A stretch of 64,000 nucleotides of DNA from a virus (Duplodnaviria > Heunggongvirae > Uroviricota > Caudoviricetes). Within the stretch, counting starts at the first letter, position 1; every line of letters begins with the position of its first letter. Location of the stretch: positions 64,001-128,000 of IMG/VR virus record IMGVR_UViG_3300047552_001889, one strand, 5' to 3'. Shown in pieces: positions 20,988 through 54,197 of the stretch. The notes under the pieces are model-generated. The model searched no databases. It worked only from the letters and a program-made list of their open reading frames with translations, and was not told where the DNA came from. Both the position numbers and the translations under genes were made by a program.

Positions 20988-22006
20988 AACGAGAATATCT
21001 TAAGACACACAACTACAAAATACTCAAGACCTATACAGTAGAAGAAATAAAGGCTCATGGAGATGCTGAGTTCTTCTACGATAAGGAAGTTACGGACAAA
21101 AGAATTAAACTCAGGAGAGCGCATATTTTGAATGAAATAGGCCATAATTGCTCCGAGGAAGGATGCAACATTTCTGGATTCCACTATGCTCTTGGAGAAG
21201 ATAAGGGCGGTGGTCTTCACCTGGACCTATATGCCTATGATAAGGAAGGTGACCTGGTTATGATTACCATTGACCATATTAAGCCAAAGTCTAAGGGTGG
21301 TTCAGATGATATAGAAAATCTAAGACCTCACTGCAAGCCTCATAATGAAATGAAGGCGAATGACTACAACTTCAATAGAGAATTTAAAAATCTTCTGGAG
21401 ATATATCCAAAGGAACCGATGTTCTCGAAGAACTATGAAATCAGAAGAGAGGTGTTATCTCAGCAAGAGTTGGATATTTTTTCAAATATGGGTGGATTCC
21501 TTGCAAATAAGTACGCAAGCCACTTTGAAGTTGGTAAGGAGTATGTTCAGCTGATTAAGAGAGATAGTGGAACAATGATGTCGGACCACCCATCTGAAAC
21601 CATGTCAAACCAGGAATTCATCAACAAAGCTTATGGAGATGTGATGATATTTGGACTTGGACTTGGTATGATTATTTTTCCACTTCTTGACGATGATGTA
21701 AAGAGCATAACAGTTGTTGAGCAAGACCTTGGGGTTATTGATATGGTTGGTCCAATCATCAAGAAATACGATACAAAGAACAAGGTGACAATAATTAATG
21801 GTGACGCATTCAAGTACCACGAAGTAATGCCTAACTCTCAAAGGTTTGATACCATCTATTTTGACATCTGGATAAGAATTGATGACGATGCATTCAATCA
21901 AATGGAGGAACTTCATAACTTATACAGAAAGTTCTTGAGGTCAAACATTTGCATCATTGACTCTTGGTGCTATAGCATGAAACAAGATTATCTGGAGAGT
22001 ATTTGA
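20984..22006 (+). CDS. HNH nuclease domain fused to class I SAM-dependent methyltransferase-like (spermidine synthase-like) domain
   Basis: TIDHIKPKSKGGSDDIENLRPHCKPHN; VMIFGLGLG, VVEQD, GDAF, FDTIYFDIW. Confidence 0.75.
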   Translation: MKREYLKTHNYKILKTYTVEEIKAHGDAEFFYDKEVTDKRIKLRRAHILNEIGHNCSEEGCNISGFHYALGEDKGGGLHLDLYAYDKEGDLVMITIDHIKPKSKGGSDDIENLRPHCKPHNEMKANDYNFNREFKNLLEIYPKEPMFSKNYEIRREVLSQQELDIFSNMGGFLANKYASHFEVGKEYVQLIKRDSGTMMSDHPSETMSNQEFINKAYGDVMIFGLGLGMIIFPLLDDDVKSITVVEQDLGVIDMVGPIIKKYDTKNKVTIINGDAFKYHEVMPNSQRFDTIYFDIWIRIDDDAFNQMEELHNLYRKFLRSNICIIDSWCYSMKQDYLESI

Positions 22007-22032
22007 AACATTTTTCATTTTGTTTCGTAAAA
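22004..22032 (+). promoter_or_regulatory. ECF-type promoter variant TGAAAC-N16-CGTAAAA
   Basis: One mismatch; TGA is upstream stop. Confidence 0.7.
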
Positions 22033-22039
22033 GAAGTAT

Positions 22040-22162
22040 ATGAAAAATTTTTTTAAAGCTGTAATCCTAATTTCAAACTTCATCCTATGCATGATAGTTG
22101 GAGCAGCATCAATTATTGTGATAGCACCTATTTCTGTTTACGAAGTCATAAATAGCAAGTAA
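22040..22162 (+). CDS. small single-TM peptide (40 aa)
   Basis: Own translation MKNFFKAVILISNFILCMIVGAASIIVIAPISVYEVINSK, directly after promoter. Confidence 0.6.
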   Translation: MKNFFKAVILISNFILCMIVGAASIIVIAPISVYEVINSK

Positions 22163-22163
22163 T

Positions 22164-26775: not shown

Positions 26776-27411
26776 ATGCATAAAAATTTAAAAAATATTT
26801 TAATACCAGTATTTGTATTGGTATCATCTCTGATTTTGATGTCATTCTATGTTGATGACATATCGAAAAACAATATTGGAAACAGTATTAATTTTAATAT
26901 TGACTTATTAAATCAAGATTCTATTGAAATTGCAATCAACAAAAGAGACAGTCTGGTACAAGACTCTATATTTGGAACTTACAAGTCTGATGCAGACTTA
27001 TTCTTAAGTAGAGAGATTTTCAATGGAACTCCTATAACTGGAGATGTTCTCTTTAAGTGTGCAAAGAGGGTCTACGACTCAACAAATGTGTTTGTGCCTC
27101 TTGAGTTGGTTCTGGCTCAAGCTCAGCTTGAGTCTGGAATGGGAAAGGTTAAGAATTCCAAGTACAAAAACAACTTCTTTGGGATAATGGATGGTGGGAA
27201 CCTGAAAAGATTCAAGACTGTTGAAGATGGTATTGAAGGTTACTACATGCTGATGAGTACAAAGTACTTAAGATGCAAGACTGTGGATGAACTCCTAAGA
27301 AACTTTACAAATTGTGGTGGAAAGAGGTATGCTTCAGAAACTTATGAGGCAAGCATTAGAAAGCAATATCACACAGTTAAGAGTTGGATTAGAAATAATC
27401 GAGAATCTTAA
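26776..27411 (+). CDS. GH73 glucosaminidase-like peptidoglycan hydrolase with N-terminal TM/signal
   Basis: LAQAQLESGMG, NNFFGI, F.TVEDGI..Y, YAS; start moved to ATG 26776 because 26743 overlaps the -10. Confidence 0.8.
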   Translation: MHKNLKNILIPVFVLVSSLILMSFYVDDISKNNIGNSINFNIDLLNQDSIEIAINKRDSLVQDSIFGTYKSDADLFLSREIFNGTPITGDVLFKCAKRVYDSTNVFVPLELVLAQAQLESGMGKVKNSKYKNNFFGIMDGGNLKRFKTVEDGIEGYYMLMSTKYLRCKTVDELLRNFTNCGGKRYASETYEASIRKQYHTVKSWIRNNRES

Positions 27412-27418
27412 CTTATTT

Positions 27419-27447
27419 TGTAACATTTTTCTATTACATCCGTATAA
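27419..27447 (+). promoter_or_regulatory. ECF-type promoter TGTAAC-N16-CGTATAA
   Basis: Exact motif; precedes non-coding structured segment. Confidence 0.8.
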
Positions 27448-27452
27448 ATACT

Positions 27453-27566
27453 GAATAAGAGCTTGAGGTATCACTACAAAGCACAATTACCCGATTGGTC
27501 TGGCGAGGTATCTTATAGAATGCACAATTACCCACAAGGTCAGCCATAAGCTCTTATTCTTTTTTT
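27453..27566 (+). ncRNA. candidate small RNA: 12-bp closing stem around two 40-41 nt repeat units, ending in a U-tract
   Basis: GAATAAGAGCTT (27453-64) / AAGCTCTTATTC (27548-59) + T run; GAGGTATC-N8/9-GCACAATTACCC-N4-GGTC twice; no ORF. Confidence 0.6.
27465..27541 (+). repeat. two bipartite direct repeats
   Basis: GAGGTATC at 27465 and 27505; GCACAATTACCC at 27481 and 27522; GGTC at 27497 and 27538. Confidence 0.9.
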
Positions 27567-27577
27567 AACTCAATAAG

Positions 27578-28042
27578 ATGGGAAATAAAAAGGAGAATTT
27601 TGAAGTCATTGAAGTTCCAGCATCTGGAAAGCGTGATTGGTTTGGTGGCGCTTGGTGTCTTGTTTGGGTTTACTCTAAGTCTGGAAACTTCCTGCTTAAG
27701 GGCTACCGAAATGAGTGCGAAGACTACATTAAGTCAAAGGGTTGGTCATGTTGGGCTATCTACAATCTATATGGTAGATATGGTCACAGAACCGTGTTGC
27801 TGACTTATAATTGTGACTTTGAAATCTCTAATCCGTCAAGGATGTCTAAGAAGAAAACATCAGAAGACTTCAAGTACAAAATCTACAGAAAGGGTAACTA
27901 CAGGGGTGCGATTAATGTGAAGAGATTACCCAAGGTTTTCGTCAACTTCAATCCACCGTATGAAAATGTAGTTCCAAATTCCCTTGGTAGCATGGATGCG
28001 CTTAAGTCCTTGAGGGATAATATGGACCAAAACAACAGATAA
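27578..28042 (+). CDS. hypothetical basic protein
   Basis: Packed ORF. Confidence 0.75.
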   Translation: MGNKKENFEVIEVPASGKRDWFGGAWCLVWVYSKSGNFLLKGYRNECEDYIKSKGWSCWAIYNLYGRYGHRTVLLTYNCDFEISNPSRMSKKKTSEDFKYKIYRKGNYRGAINVKRLPKVFVNFNPPYENVVPNSLGSMDALKSLRDNMDQNNR

Positions 28043-28265: not shown

Positions 28266-29303
28266 ATGAATATACTAAACGACAACGGCAAATACACATT
28301 TTATAACTCACTAAAAATTGAAGATAAGCTTGAAACTAAGAACTACATCTTCAACTGTGACGAATATGGTAATTGCTGGCTTGAGGATGCTGAGTCATTT
28401 AAGGTTCCAGAAAAAATATATGATATAAGCTCTGGCTTTAGACAAGATGTTTTGAAGTCATTCAATCACTATCAGAGGAATCTTGGAGTTCTTTTAACTG
28501 GAAATAAGGGTCAAGGTAAGTCATTGACTGCAAAACTTCTTTGCAGAGAAATGAATATGCCAATCATCATCATTAATAAGTCAATTCCTAAGTCTGTTAA
28601 CTTTGTTCGATTCTTCAATAACATCAAGCAAAATCATTGCATCTTTCTGGATGAGTTCGAAAAGCTCTTCTCAACATACAGTGCTACTAATGAAAACGAA
28701 TTCCATGGACAAGAAGTATTTCTTTCATTTATGGATGGTGTTCTAACAAATGAGCATAAGACACTTTTCTTGCTTACAACGAATGATAGCGTGAATGAGT
28801 ACTTCATGAACAGGCCATCAAGAATCAAGTTCCTTAAGGAATATGATGAGCTTGACGAGGAAATATTTAACATGATTGTTGAGGATAAACTTCAAAATAA
28901 GGAGTTCCAGAAAGACCTTGAGGACAGTGTTTCTCTTGTGAACTTGAACATTGACCTTCTCATATCAATCATTGATGATATTAACCTATTCAATCGACCA
29001 TTTTCTGAATTTAAGGACAACTACAACTATAAGCTTGAAAACTTTAAGTATGAGGTTTCTATAGTTCAGGATAAATCTGAAAAGTTTGAAGGATACTATT
29101 CATCTAAGAGAAAGGTAAGAAACACAGACACATATCTTCATCATCATCAGGTTACTGATTTCTTGAAATTTACCAGAGAAGAAATTATCTTCACTTCTTT
29201 TGAGTGGGATGAAGATGAGCATGGTAATGAAATCAAGAAGGATATTGTAGTAAGGATGACATTGTGTTCAAATAAATACACTGTTACTAACGCATATTCT
29301 TAA
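28266..29303 (+). CDS. AAA+ ATPase
   Basis: GNKGQGKS, IFLDEFEK, LLTTN, RPSRI arginine finger. Confidence 0.9.
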   Translation: MNILNDNGKYTFYNSLKIEDKLETKNYIFNCDEYGNCWLEDAESFKVPEKIYDISSGFRQDVLKSFNHYQRNLGVLLTGNKGQGKSLTAKLLCREMNMPIIIINKSIPKSVNFVRFFNNIKQNHCIFLDEFEKLFSTYSATNENEFHGQEVFLSFMDGVLTNEHKTLFLLTTNDSVNEYFMNRPSRIKFLKEYDELDEEIFNMIVEDKLQNKEFQKDLEDSVSLVNLNIDLLISIIDDINLFNRPFSEFKDNYNYKLENFKYEVSIVQDKSEKFEGYYSSKRKVRNTDTYLHHHQVTDFLKFTREEIIFTSFEWDEDEHGNEIKKDIVVRMTLCSNKYTVTNAYS

Positions 29304-53834: not shown

Positions 53835-53863
53835 TGTAACATTTTTATATAGTTTACGTATAA
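53835..53863 (+). promoter_or_regulatory. ECF-type promoter TGTAAC-N16-CGTATAA
   Basis: Exact motif preceding GC-rich non-coding segment. Confidence 0.8.
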
Positions 53864-53868
53864 CAAAG

Positions 53869-53993
53869 CTCAAGCAGGTGTTAAGGCGCTCCAGGTGTGT
53901 CAAGACTGCATCCCGAAAGGGTATACAAACCTTGGTCCGATGCTGGAATTATACGTGGCAAGGTGAGAGCAATCCTCATGCTTGCCTTTTTTT
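53869..53993 (+). ncRNA. candidate structured ncRNA or attenuator leader (about 120 nt)
   Basis: GC-rich; TCCAG/CTGGA stem, CCC-GAAA-GGG hairpin, terminal GGCAAG-GTGAG-agcaatc-CTCAT-g-CTTGCC + T7; 5' CAAGCA can pair with TGCTTG. Confidence 0.6.
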
Positions 53994-54023
53994 ATTGAGA
54001 ACAAACAACAATCAACAATAGAG

Positions 54024-54197
54024 ATGATAACAGTTTTTTACGCAGCAGCATGTATATTCTTTTCTTATGTACTCGTGAAGTCTTCTGTAGAGCTATGGAG
54101 AGTTGAGGGCAACTTGCTTGATAAATTATATCTAGTGATTTCTTCTGGTACAGCTCTTGCATTTTCATTCTTTGCACTATTTGAAACATTGTTTTAG
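54024..54197 (+). CDS. small two-TM protein (57 aa)
   Basis: Start moved to ATG 54024. Confidence 0.55.
   Translation: MITVFYAAACIFFSYVLVKSSVELWRVEGNLLDKLYLVISSGTALAFSFFALFETLF

What the first reader, a model, noticed from the sequence alone, without database searches (positions are those of the whole stretch)
27419..27566. Candidate novel phage small RNA: promoter - closing stem - two bipartite repeats - U-tract
Seen: an ECF promoter whose expected +1 (about 27452-27454) coincides with the first base of a perfect 12-bp inverted repeat, GAATAAGAGCTT...AAGCTCTTATTC, immediately followed by T7. Inside are two units of GAGGTATC-[N8/9 variable]-GCACAATTACCC-[N4]-GGTC with a 40-41 nt period. GGTA/TACC can pair within each unit, and TGGC/GCCA encloses unit 2. 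There is no ORF. Analogies from established systems, none confirmed: type III antitoxin (ToxI-like) repeat mimics used by phages, RNA anti-CRISPR/solitary repeat units, protein-sponge RNAs, or the constant/variable alternation of TIGR arrays (box C/D motifs and a Nop-domain gene are not seen here). Inference: a decoy or guide RNA with two protein-binding modules, potentially a new anti-defence RNA class.
Basis: partly seen in the sequence, partly recalled or inferred. Interest (0 to 1): 0.85.

Follow-up and report, generated by a model that had tools for sequence, protein, structure and literature searches.

The report
New phage RNA with partner protein
This intergenic stretch of an uncultured huge phage encodes a real, about 110-nt structured RNA that matches no catalogued RNA family and always lies next to one small basic protein with no recognisable fold, so the two probably work together as an RNA-protein pair of unknown function.

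Summary
There is an ECF-type promoter at 27419-27447. A perfect 12-bp closing helix (27453-64 with 27548-59) is followed by T7 and encloses two about 40-nt look-alike units.

It is a genuine structured RNA on the + strand. I found the same element in 43 loci from metagenomic phage contigs of up to 389 kb. Four helices are supported by covariation: 95.7% of cells are paired, 20 of 30 pairs show compensatory changes, 0 of 500 shuffles reach this, and slid controls give 38-49%. G.U pairs outnumber A.C pairs 40 to 9. Nothing in Rfam 15 matches.

In all 43 loci it abuts a gene of one orphan family, here 27578-28042 (154 aa, pI 9.5). This held for proteins down to about 30% identity, when all other neighbours differ, and when the order is reversed (gene then RNA, 6 loci). 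The protein has no Pfam, PHROG, PADLOC or NCBIfam hit. A confident model (pLDDT 88) finds no known fold (best Z 3.8).

Best reading: a dedicated RNA-protein module. Each bulged hairpin probably docks one protein copy, and the leaky terminator probably sets the RNA:protein ratio, as in type III toxin-antitoxin loci. Membership of that class is not shown. I found no support for the decoy, guide or CRISPR-mimic ideas.

The parts
27419..27447 (+). ECF-type promoter: TGTAAC, 16-nt spacer, CGTATAA. The expected start lies about 27451-27454, at the first bases of P1.
   Evidence: Sequence. It is one of 18 such sites in the window. 15 of them have the start codon 2-36 nt after CGTA, whereas here the gap is 133 nt, filled by the RNA. 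The same promoter type sits 8-31 nt before the RNA in L003, L004, L010, L013, L048 and L056.
27453..27464 (+). P1 5' arm of the closing helix
   Evidence: Pairs perfectly with 27548-27559. 11 of the 14 model pairs of P1 show compensatory changes across 17 sequences.
27465..27492 (+). Unit 1 hairpin: closing G-C pair (27465 with 27492), bulged A 27466, stem GGTA/TACC (27467-70 with 27488-91), and a 17-nt loop ending in GCACAAT (27481-87)
   Evidence: The stem covaries: GGUG/CACC in L028 and L048, GGUG/CGCC in L009, GGUUA/UAACC in L008. The loop motif GCWYAAY is present in nearly all units parsed; L057 has GCUCUUC.
27493..27495 (+). Junction linker GAU between unit 1 and P2
   Evidence: Conserved as C-N-A-U in the alignment.
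27496..27504 (+). P2 5' arm (TGGTCTGGC, with C27500 bulged)
   Evidence: Pairs with 27539-27546. 6 of 8 pairs show compensatory changes. L010 has an entirely different but complementary pair of arms. In type B variants P2 is 14 bp with 8 covarying pairs.
27505..27533 (+). Unit 2 hairpin: closing G-C pair (27505 with 27533), bulged A 27506, stem GGTA/TACC (27507-10 with 27529-32), and a loop ending in GCACAAT (27522-28)
   Evidence: In L007 the stem changes to GGC/GCC and an extra hairpin is inserted in the loop. In type B variants the closing pair becomes C-G with a bulged U.
27539..27546 (+). P2 3' arm (GTCAGCCA)
27548..27559 (+). P1 3' arm
27560..27566 (+). U-tract (T7). With P1 it forms an intrinsic-terminator-like 3' end.
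   Evidence: Sequence. A T-run follows P1 in all 17 canonical sequences, though in L048 it is interrupted (UUUUUAUAA). One also follows the type B variants. None follows L057 or the type C variants.
27578..28042 (+). Partner gene: a 154-aa basic orphan protein (P0001). Its start codon lies 11 nt after the U-tract.
   Evidence: 27 close and 115 representative homologues, none with a name or a Pfam domain. Adjacent to the RNA in 43 of 43 loci. pI 9.5. AF2 model with pLDDT 88 has no fold match.

Best explanation
The element is the gene for a discrete structured RNA of about 107-114 nt. Transcription starts at the ECF-type promoter, and the first bases pair with the last bases in a 12-14-bp clamp (P1) whose U-tract ends the transcript.

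Inside the clamp is a three-way junction carrying two copies of one hairpin module. Each module has a closing G-C pair, a single bulged A, a 4-bp GGUA/UACC stem, and a loop ending in GCWYAAU. The second copy is nested in a further helix, P2.

The RNA works together with the small basic orphan protein encoded next to it. I infer that each bulged hairpin docks one copy of the protein, giving an RNA-protein particle. Because the protein gene has no room for a promoter of its own and starts 11 nt after the terminator, it can only be expressed by read-through. The RNA would therefore be made in excess over the protein's mRNA, the same dosage logic as in type III toxin-antitoxin loci.

What is shown: the RNA structure, its strand, and its strict genetic coupling to the protein family.
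What is inferred: direct binding, the 1 RNA : 2 protein arrangement, and the excess of RNA.
What is unknown: the job of the particle. My leaning is that the RNA holds or controls the activity of the protein, rather than being a guide or a decoy for a host factor.
For: Structure:
- RNAalifold recovers P1, the unit 1 stem, P2 and the unit 2 stem from 12 sequences, with 18 of 30 pairs compensatory.
- On 17 sequences 95.7% of cells are paired, 20 of 30 pairs change on both sides, 0 of 500 shuffles reach this, and slid controls give 38-49%.
- Distant variants fold the same way.

Strand:
- G.U/U.G cells outnumber A.C/C.A cells 40 to 9.
- The reverse strand scores 24.6 bits where the forward strand scores 124.6 bits.
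- The promoter and the U-tract are co-oriented with the RNA.

Coupling to the protein:
- 11 of 11 loci fetched through the protein carry the RNA.
- 7 of 7 loci found through the RNA pattern alone carry the gene.
- 24 of 24 further viral loci, with proteins at 27-57% identity, carry it too.
- No other neighbour is conserved in the distant loci, and in L011 the pair has moved relative to its neighbours.
- In 6 loci the order is gene then RNA.

Other points:
- It is a discrete gene. Its own promoter sits 8-31 nt before P1 in at least 7 loci, and the leader is 133 nt against 2-36 nt at 15 of 18 sister promoters.
- Ordinary terminators in this phage are simple hairpins.
- The protein family is basic (median pI 9.7). 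Some members add an N-terminal four-cysteine motif that looks like a zinc ribbon.
Against: - No expression data exist, and no binding has been shown or predicted.
- The protein has no recognisable RNA-binding domain. The only structural hint is weak: Cas2, a ferredoxin-like fold, at Z 3.8 with rmsd 4.4 over 67 residues.
- In 37 of 43 loci the RNA lies directly in front of the gene's start codon, which a purely cis-acting leader would also explain.
- One distant homologue (P0065) lies in a gene map with no intergenic room for an RNA. Its DNA could not be read, so this is unverified.
- The U-tract is missing in L057 and in the type C variants, so the dosage argument cannot be universal.
Confidence: 0.55

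Rival explanations
1. Autoregulatory leader. The RNA is mainly a cis-acting operator in the 5' untranslated region of the protein's own mRNA. The protein binds the two hairpins, which mimic its real target elsewhere, and thereby blocks ribosome loading 11-25 nt downstream or changes termination at P1/U7. The precedent is the two-hairpin thrS operator or ribosomal-protein leaders (from my own knowledge).
For: The RNA ends 10-25 nt before the start codon in 18 of the 19 canonical loci (the exception is L007) and lies directly upstream in type B loci too. The gene has no promoter of its own after the terminator. Two equivalent hairpins would suit a dimeric or two-copy binder.
Against: - In 6 loci the RNA lies after the gene's stop codon and in front of unrelated genes.
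- In L007 a 96-aa ORF separates the RNA from the gene.
- The RNA has its own promoter abutting P1 and a 12-14-bp end clamp, which are features of a stable stand-alone RNA.
- No second copy of the hairpin that could be the 'real' target exists in the 141-kb contig or in 301 Bacteroidota genomes.
Confidence: 0.2
2. A new family of type III-like toxin-antitoxin pair carried by the phage. The protein is a toxic RNase-like enzyme, and the two hairpin units are antitoxic RNA that binds and neutralises it.
For: The locus layout matches the published criteria of promoter, repeats, terminator and a small protein gene (PMC3401426). One published locus with swapped order exists. The pair moves as a two-part cassette independently of its neighbours. 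tenpN toxin homologues have been reported in viral genomes (PMC12283969).
Against: - No sequence match to any family, including the Pfam and PADLOC models.
- No ToxN-, CptN- or AbiQ-like hit in the fold searches.
- Tandem Repeats Finder, the tool used to define such loci, reports no repeat at score 30 or more.
- The two units are not free, equivalent repeats. They are built into one folded RNA, with unit 2 nested in P2 and both inside P1.
- The terminator is made by the flanks of the RNA, not by a separate palindrome.
Confidence: 0.13
3. A free-standing anti-defence decoy, sponge or guide RNA that acts on a host factor, with the neighbouring gene irrelevant.
For: Two repeated protein-binding-like modules. 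The setting is a phage. There is a dedicated promoter and terminator.
Against: - Linkage to one phage protein family in 43 of 43 loci argues for a phage partner.
- No host counterpart of the unit was found.
- No Rfam CRISPR-repeat or other match falls on the element.
- The 'variable' blocks behave as loop sequence.
Confidence: 0.05
4. A riboswitch: a small-molecule aptamer with pseudo-twofold symmetry that controls termination before the downstream gene.
For: Highly conserved unpaired nucleotides, tandem similar sub-domains, and a terminator upstream of a gene.
Against: P1 is 12-14 bp and doubles as the terminator stem, so it should form with or without a ligand. No conserved alternative pairing is visible. 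The RNA lies downstream of the gene in 6 loci and lacks a U-tract in some. The only associated gene family has no metabolic or transport signature.
Confidence: 0.04
5. Not an RNA at all: an ornate intrinsic terminator, or a double-stranded DNA site (operator, iteron, MITE-like repeat).
For: A perfect inverted repeat plus T7. In several relatives the element directly follows the stop codon of the upstream gene and so also ends that transcription unit.
Against: - Covariation keeps four nested helices while the conserved sequence sits in the loops.
- There is a strand-specific excess of G.U pairs.
- There is a single copy per genome.
- Ordinary terminators of the phage are 10-12-bp hairpins with 4-nt loops.
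Confidence: 0.02

Closest known systems
Type III toxin-antitoxin loci (toxIN, cptIN, tenpIN; criteria in PMC3401426)
   Same: The genetic layout is the same: promoter, then short repeated RNA units, then a Rho-independent terminator, then a gene for a small protein expressed by read-through. Both are two-part RNA-protein cassettes. Two units would match the low repeat numbers I recall for cptIN (from memory).
   Different: The protein shows no sequence or fold relation to ToxN, CptN, TenpN or AbiQ. The units are degenerate (TRF finds no repeat) and are parts of one folded RNA with closing helices P1 and P2. The terminator stem is formed by the ends of the RNA itself. Toxicity, neutralisation and processing are untested.
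Coat-protein operator hairpin of RNA phage MS2 (recalled from memory as ACAUGAGGAUUACCCAUGU)
   Same: The hairpin grammar is the same: a G-C pair, one bulged A, then G-C, G-C. The local letters UGAGG...AUUACCC are shared. In MS2 the bulged A and loop bases are read by a protein dimer.
   Different: Here the stem continues (UA/UA) and the loop is 17-23 nt with its own conserved motif. The partner protein gave no match to any solved fold. This is an analogy for how a bulged hairpin can be read, not a claim of homology.
thrS operator and ribosomal-protein leaders (autoregulatory mRNA mimics; from my own knowledge)
   Same: Two similar hairpins lie just upstream of the start codon of the gene whose product presumably binds them.
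   Different: This element has its own promoter and terminator and an end clamp. In some phages it lies downstream of the gene. No cellular or phage RNA that it could be mimicking was found.
Gene-linked RNA motifs of unknown function: HEARO with its ORF and the DUF3800 RNA motifs (recalled from memory), and OLE RNA with its protein partner OAP (abstract of PMC3413148)
   Same: A structured RNA found by covariation whose only consistent clue is a tightly linked protein gene.
   Different: Unrelated in sequence and structure. None of these families, nor any other Rfam 15 model, matches.

Membership tests
Type III toxin-antitoxin system | The protein gene is preceded by a Rho-independent terminator (PMC3401426) | tested here: met
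   P1 (12 bp) plus T7 ends 11 nt before the ATG at 27578. The stem is formed by the two ends of the RNA, not by a separate short palindrome.
Type III toxin-antitoxin system | [quoted passage not shown] | tested here: not met
   TRF reports nothing at score 30 or more in 27300-27700. The two 40-41-nt units share only the blocks GAGGTATC, GCACAATTACCC and GGTC, and they are nested in helices P1 and P2.
Type III toxin-antitoxin system | The toxin belongs to the ToxN/CptN/TenpN (AbiQ) endoribonuclease superfamily | tested here: inconclusive
   No Pfam, NCBIfam or PADLOC match for 40 family members. A profile search against PDB sequences finds nothing. Fold searches with two models (pLDDT 80 and 88) list no such toxin, best Z 4.5 and 3.8.
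Type III toxin-antitoxin system | The protein is toxic, the RNA neutralises it, and the protein cuts the precursor into units | not testable with these tools
   This needs expression and cleavage assays.
Any Rfam 15 family (including CRISPR repeats, hammerhead, Y-RNA-like, tRNA-like, 6S) | A covariance-model match | tested here: not met
   No match on the element at E up to 10 in the window, or up to 1 in eight relatives. ARAGORN finds no tRNA or tmRNA in the window.
RNA anti-CRISPR / solitary repeat unit, or mimic of a host antitoxin repeat | The sequence resembles a repeat carried by host genomes | tested here: not met
   The two-unit core pattern gave only chance hits in the genome collection, and none passes the RNA model. 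The single-unit pattern gave 28 scattered, unrelated hits in 24 of 301 Bacteroidota genomes, against 13 hits for the backwards control. The host is unknown, so this is not exhaustive.
TIGR-Tas / box C/D-type guide RNA | A Nop-domain protein next to the array, and box C/D (k-turn) motifs | tested here: not met
   No Pfam domain in the adjacent proteins. UGAUGA occurs in many relatives but lies inside helix P2, covaries, and is absent from the window.
Riboswitch | An aptamer always in the 5' leader of the regulated genes, with a ligand-dependent alternative to the terminator | tested here: not met
   The RNA follows the gene in L051-54, L060 and L065. P1 is a constitutive 12-14-bp helix and no conserved competing pairing was seen. 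Ligand binding itself is not testable here.
The new RNA family defined here (model R1) | P1, then hairpin 1, then P2 enclosing hairpin 2, with GCWYAAY loops, adjacent to a P0001-family gene | tested here: met
   The window scores 113.9 bits, E 1e-26. The gene is adjacent.

The most novel reading that the evidence does not exclude
A previously unknown ribonucleoprotein of huge phages. It would be a stand-alone, tRNA-sized stable RNA, in several phages encoded near tRNA genes, that serves as scaffold or cofactor for a small protein of a new fold, with an activity of its own on host or phage nucleic acids or on translation. It would be neither a toxin-antitoxin pair nor a regulator of its own gene.
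Probability: 0.3. Interest if true: 0.9.

Novelty: new variant of a known kind. Interest (0 to 1): 0.74.

Why it matters
Structured RNAs with a dedicated protein partner are few, and several have turned out to be tools or key machines (tmRNA-SmpB, CRISPR RNAs, omega RNAs, type III antitoxins).

Here both halves are new. The RNA has no Rfam relative, yet its covariation support is strong. The protein has more than 100 representative relatives, no annotation anywhere, and a confidently predicted structure that matches nothing solved.

The pair is widespread in uncultured huge phages of Bacteroidota-like hosts from freshwater, sediment and soil samples, and absent from the 50,697 GenBank phage records searched. 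It is small enough (about 110 nt plus 154 aa) to be synthesised and tested directly.

If it is a type III-like pair, it adds a fourth, structurally different family and places it on the phage side. If it is not, it is a new kind of phage ribonucleoprotein.

Tried and rejected
- **Rfam:** cmscan at permissive thresholds found nothing on the element. ARAGORN found nothing.
- **Hammerhead (CUGAUGA...GAAA):** the similar letters lie in covarying helix P2, differ in the window, and no GAAA core follows. Rejected.
- **Box C/D or k-turn:** the 3' strand of unit 2 is variable (ACAAGG, GCAUAU, AUUGUG), so there is no conserved tandem G.A. Rejected.
- **Alternative CAAU/AUUG pairing in unit 1:** broken in L010 and shows no covariation. 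Rejected.
- **Cross-pairing between the two units:** L007 and L028 favour pairing within each unit. Rejected.
- **Exact-motif scan of viral contigs:** no match. A scan of viral contigs with the 154-aa protein alone also found nothing.
- **GenBank phages:** no match by DNA or by protein.
- **Degenerate two-unit pattern:** the viral contigs and genome-contig hits were all chance, since none passes the RNA model.
- **Extra copies of the unit in the phage's own 141 kb:** none convincing.
- **Host-side search in 301 Bacteroidota genomes:** only scattered hits.
- **Expression:** no RNA holder was listed among public runs. Read laying was not used because only DNA contigs were on offer.
- **Homodimer prediction for the protein:** no verdict.
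- **Fold searches (PDB, BFVD, AFDB clusters, ESM Atlas, VIA wide) with two models:** no clear match.
- **ESM Atlas search by protein features:** no usable hit.
- **Earlier notes of this scan:** nothing on this RNA or this protein.
- **Counter-example check:** the P0065 locus could not be read because no DNA was served.
- **Broad 35-sequence alignment:** it could not seed a locus search, so a 10-sequence alignment was used instead.

Full report
**1. Observation.**
The sequence at 27419-27566 is exactly as described.
- TGTAAC (27419-24), a 16-nt spacer and CGTATAA (27441-47) form one of the phage's ECF-type promoters.
- GAATAAGAGCTT (27453-64) pairs perfectly with AAGCTCTTATTC (27548-59), and T7 follows (27560-66).
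- Between the arms lie two units, GAGGTATC-N8/9-GCACAATTACCC-N4-GGTC, starting at 27465 and 27505.

The bipartite unit is not expected by chance: 0 matches in 100 shuffles. It is unique in the window and in the whole 140,950-bp IMG/VR contig, which is estimated to be 63% complete.

On its own the sequence folds only modestly better than shuffles (z = -2.4). One sequence therefore could not settle the matter.

**2. Surroundings.**
All genes nearby are on the + strand. A glucosaminidase-type lysin gene ends at 27411. A 154-aa ORF starts at 27578, 11 nt after the U-tract.

Of 18 ECF-type promoters in the window, 15 have their start codon 2-36 nt after CGTA. This one has 133 nt, so the element is an insert between a promoter and a gene. 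Ordinary terminators of the phage are plain 10-12-bp hairpins with 4-nt loops.

**3. Relatives.**
The 154-aa protein (P0001) has 26 close homologues, all unnamed and without Pfam domains.
- I fetched 11 of their contigs. Every one carries the same element just upstream of the gene, although the gene on the other side differs.
- I then searched with a degenerate pattern of the RNA core alone. This recovered seven further metagenomic loci, and all of them have the protein gene 10-25 nt downstream.
- The hits of that pattern in viral contigs and in the collection of one genome for each of 185,579 prokaryote species were chance. None passes the covariance model.

**4. Structure.**
RNAalifold on 12 sequences gives four helices:
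- P1, the closing helix.
- A 4-bp stem closing unit 1.
- P2, 8 bp, enclosing unit 2.
- A 4-bp stem closing unit 2.

On the 17-sequence alignment 95.7% of cells are paired and 20 of 30 pairs change on both sides. The covariation score is 0.457 against 0.196 in shuffles (0 of 500 reach it), and partners slid by 1-3 columns give 38-49% pairing. That alignment was fitted to the model, which favours the structure. However, the independent MAFFT/RNAalifold run agrees.

Examples of compensation:
- P1 reads GAAUAAGAGCUU in the window, GGGGGGCUU in L004, AGAAAAGGACUU in L005 and GAGUGGUCAGAUU in L010, each with a matching 3' arm.
- P2 is UGGCUUGA/UCGAGCCA in L005 and GAGAAUGG/CCCUUCUC in L010.
- The unit stems become GGUG/CGCC in both units of L009, and GGUG/CACC in L028 and L048.

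G.U cells outnumber A.C cells 40 to 9, or 23 to 9 without one invariant pair. The reverse strand scores about 100 bits lower. The functional strand is therefore the + strand, as RNA.

Each unit is best described as follows:
- A closing G-C pair.
- One bulged nucleotide, A in this group and U in distant groups.
- A 3-5-bp stem.
- A roughly 20-nt loop whose 3' part reads (U)AUARAAN-GCWYAAY.

In L007 the variable 5' part of one loop is replaced by an extra 7-bp hairpin, as expected for a solvent-exposed loop.

**5. The wider family.**
A profile search finds 115 representative proteins, 66 of them at E of 1e-10 or better. Their shared motifs are SGK..W.GGA, GNFLLKGY..E and FKRLP..W.PE. Two locus searches in IMG/VR brought 24 more loci on contigs of up to 389 kb. 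All carry a recognisable variant of the RNA next to the gene:
- **Type B:** an added tetraloop hairpin and a 14-bp P2.
- **L056:** P1 is lost and P2 carries the U-tract.
- **L057:** no U-tract.
- **L058:** a large insertion.
- **Type C (L051-54, L060, L065):** the RNA starts at the stop codon of the gene, so the order is reversed, and it has no U-tract.

None of the window's other neighbouring genes is found in these distant loci. In L011 the pair sits on the other side of the lysin block. The RNA and the gene therefore travel as a two-part module, in 43 of 43 loci for which DNA could be read.

**6. The protein.**
It is basic: pI 9.5, family median 9.7. It has no match in Pfam, NCBIfam, PHROGs, PADLOC or PDB sequences.

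Two AlphaFold2 models (pLDDT 80.3 and 88.3) agree on a mostly beta structure with one central helix and one C-terminal helix. No library gives a clear match. The best is Cas2, a ferredoxin-like fold, at Z 3.8, rmsd 4.4 over 67 residues, well under what the tool's notes call typical for unmatched models. I treat that only as a hint of an RRM-like core.

Some family members carry an N-terminal CxxC...CxxC motif that looks like a zinc ribbon, or a helical extension.

**7. Mechanism.**
Shown:
- A conserved folded RNA.
- Its strand.
- Its own promoter in at least seven loci.
- A terminator-like 3' end in most loci.
- Strict coupling to one protein family, irrespective of order and neighbours.

Inferred:
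- The protein binds the RNA.
- The two bulged hairpins are the docking sites, one protomer each.
- Read-through of P1/U7 is the only route to the protein's mRNA here, so the RNA is made in excess.

The reversed order in six loci, the ORF inserted between RNA and gene in L007, the end clamp, and the dedicated promoter argue that the RNA is more than a 5' operator. The usual position just before the start codon keeps autoregulation alive as a rival or an added role.

The layout equals that used to define type III toxin-antitoxin loci (PMC3401426). Three things differ:
- TRF finds no repeat.
- The units are parts of one fold.
- The protein shows no relation to the known toxins.

I therefore say it may work like one, but I do not file it as a member.

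I found no support for the decoy, guide, CRISPR-mimic or TIGR readings.

The unit resembles the MS2 operator hairpin, which has a G-C pair, a bulged A and G-C, G-C pairs, with the letters UGAGG...AUUACCC. I recalled this from memory and offer it only as an analogy for how a bulged hairpin can be read.

**8. Novelty and verdict.**

It is a new structured RNA class bound genetically to a new protein family in uncultured huge phages. Function remains open, and simple bench tests would decide between the readings.

Noticed in passing
L064:2105-2177; L051:1972-2044; L090:1046-1120; L010:207-434; also L090 and L091 just upstream of their RNAs: In several relatives the RNA-protein module lies close to tRNA genes. 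Examples are a tRNA-His about 80 nt before the RNA in L064, a tRNA-His about 440 nt before the gene in L051, and tRNAs in L010. In L090 and L091 the sequence just before the RNA looks like the 3' end of a tRNA (T-arm plus acceptor), but ARAGORN does not call it. This may mean co-transcription or co-processing with stable RNAs.
   Followed up: partly
L061:2180-2884 (P0142); proteins P0068, P0069, P0102: Some family members carry an N-terminal extension of about 100 aa that begins MFYCNDC...C..CG...CND, a four-cysteine motif that looks like a zinc ribbon. Others (P0055, P0062, P0084, P0103) carry a helical IE.IAW..F motif instead. Neither has a Pfam match.
   Followed up: partly
window 22004-22163: This ECF-type promoter has a long gap (134 nt) to the next large ORF. 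The gap holds a small hydrophobic ORF of about 40 codons (ATG at 22041), which is probably a membrane peptide and not an RNA.
   Followed up: partly
window 53835-54024: This is the third promoter with a long leader (163 nt to the next ORF of at least 50 aa). I did not examine it beyond the distance.
   Followed up: no
L003:4771-5596 (minus strand): The closest relative of this region carries two inserted minus-strand genes (HTH_OrfB_IS605 and ART-PolyVal domains) between the AAA ATPase gene and the following genes. They are absent from the window.
   Followed up: no
window 28266-29303: A 345-aa AAA+ ATPase lies near the module in most canonical loci. It has weak similarity to nSTAND3 and to the PADLOC IetA and BrxF models. 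It is not found within 2.5 kb of the module in distant loci, so it is probably just synteny.
   Followed up: partly
L051:3031-3423: In type C loci the RNA is followed by unrelated genes. In L051 this is a 130-aa ORF whose N-terminus contains VVYHGT, which reminded me of ADP-ribosyl/2'-phosphotransferase motifs. I did not check this.
   Followed up: no
P0065 locus (no DNA served): The gene map of one distant family member shows genes abutting on both sides, with no room for a 110-nt RNA. This is a possible counter-example to the strict RNA-gene linkage, but it is unverified.
   Followed up: partly
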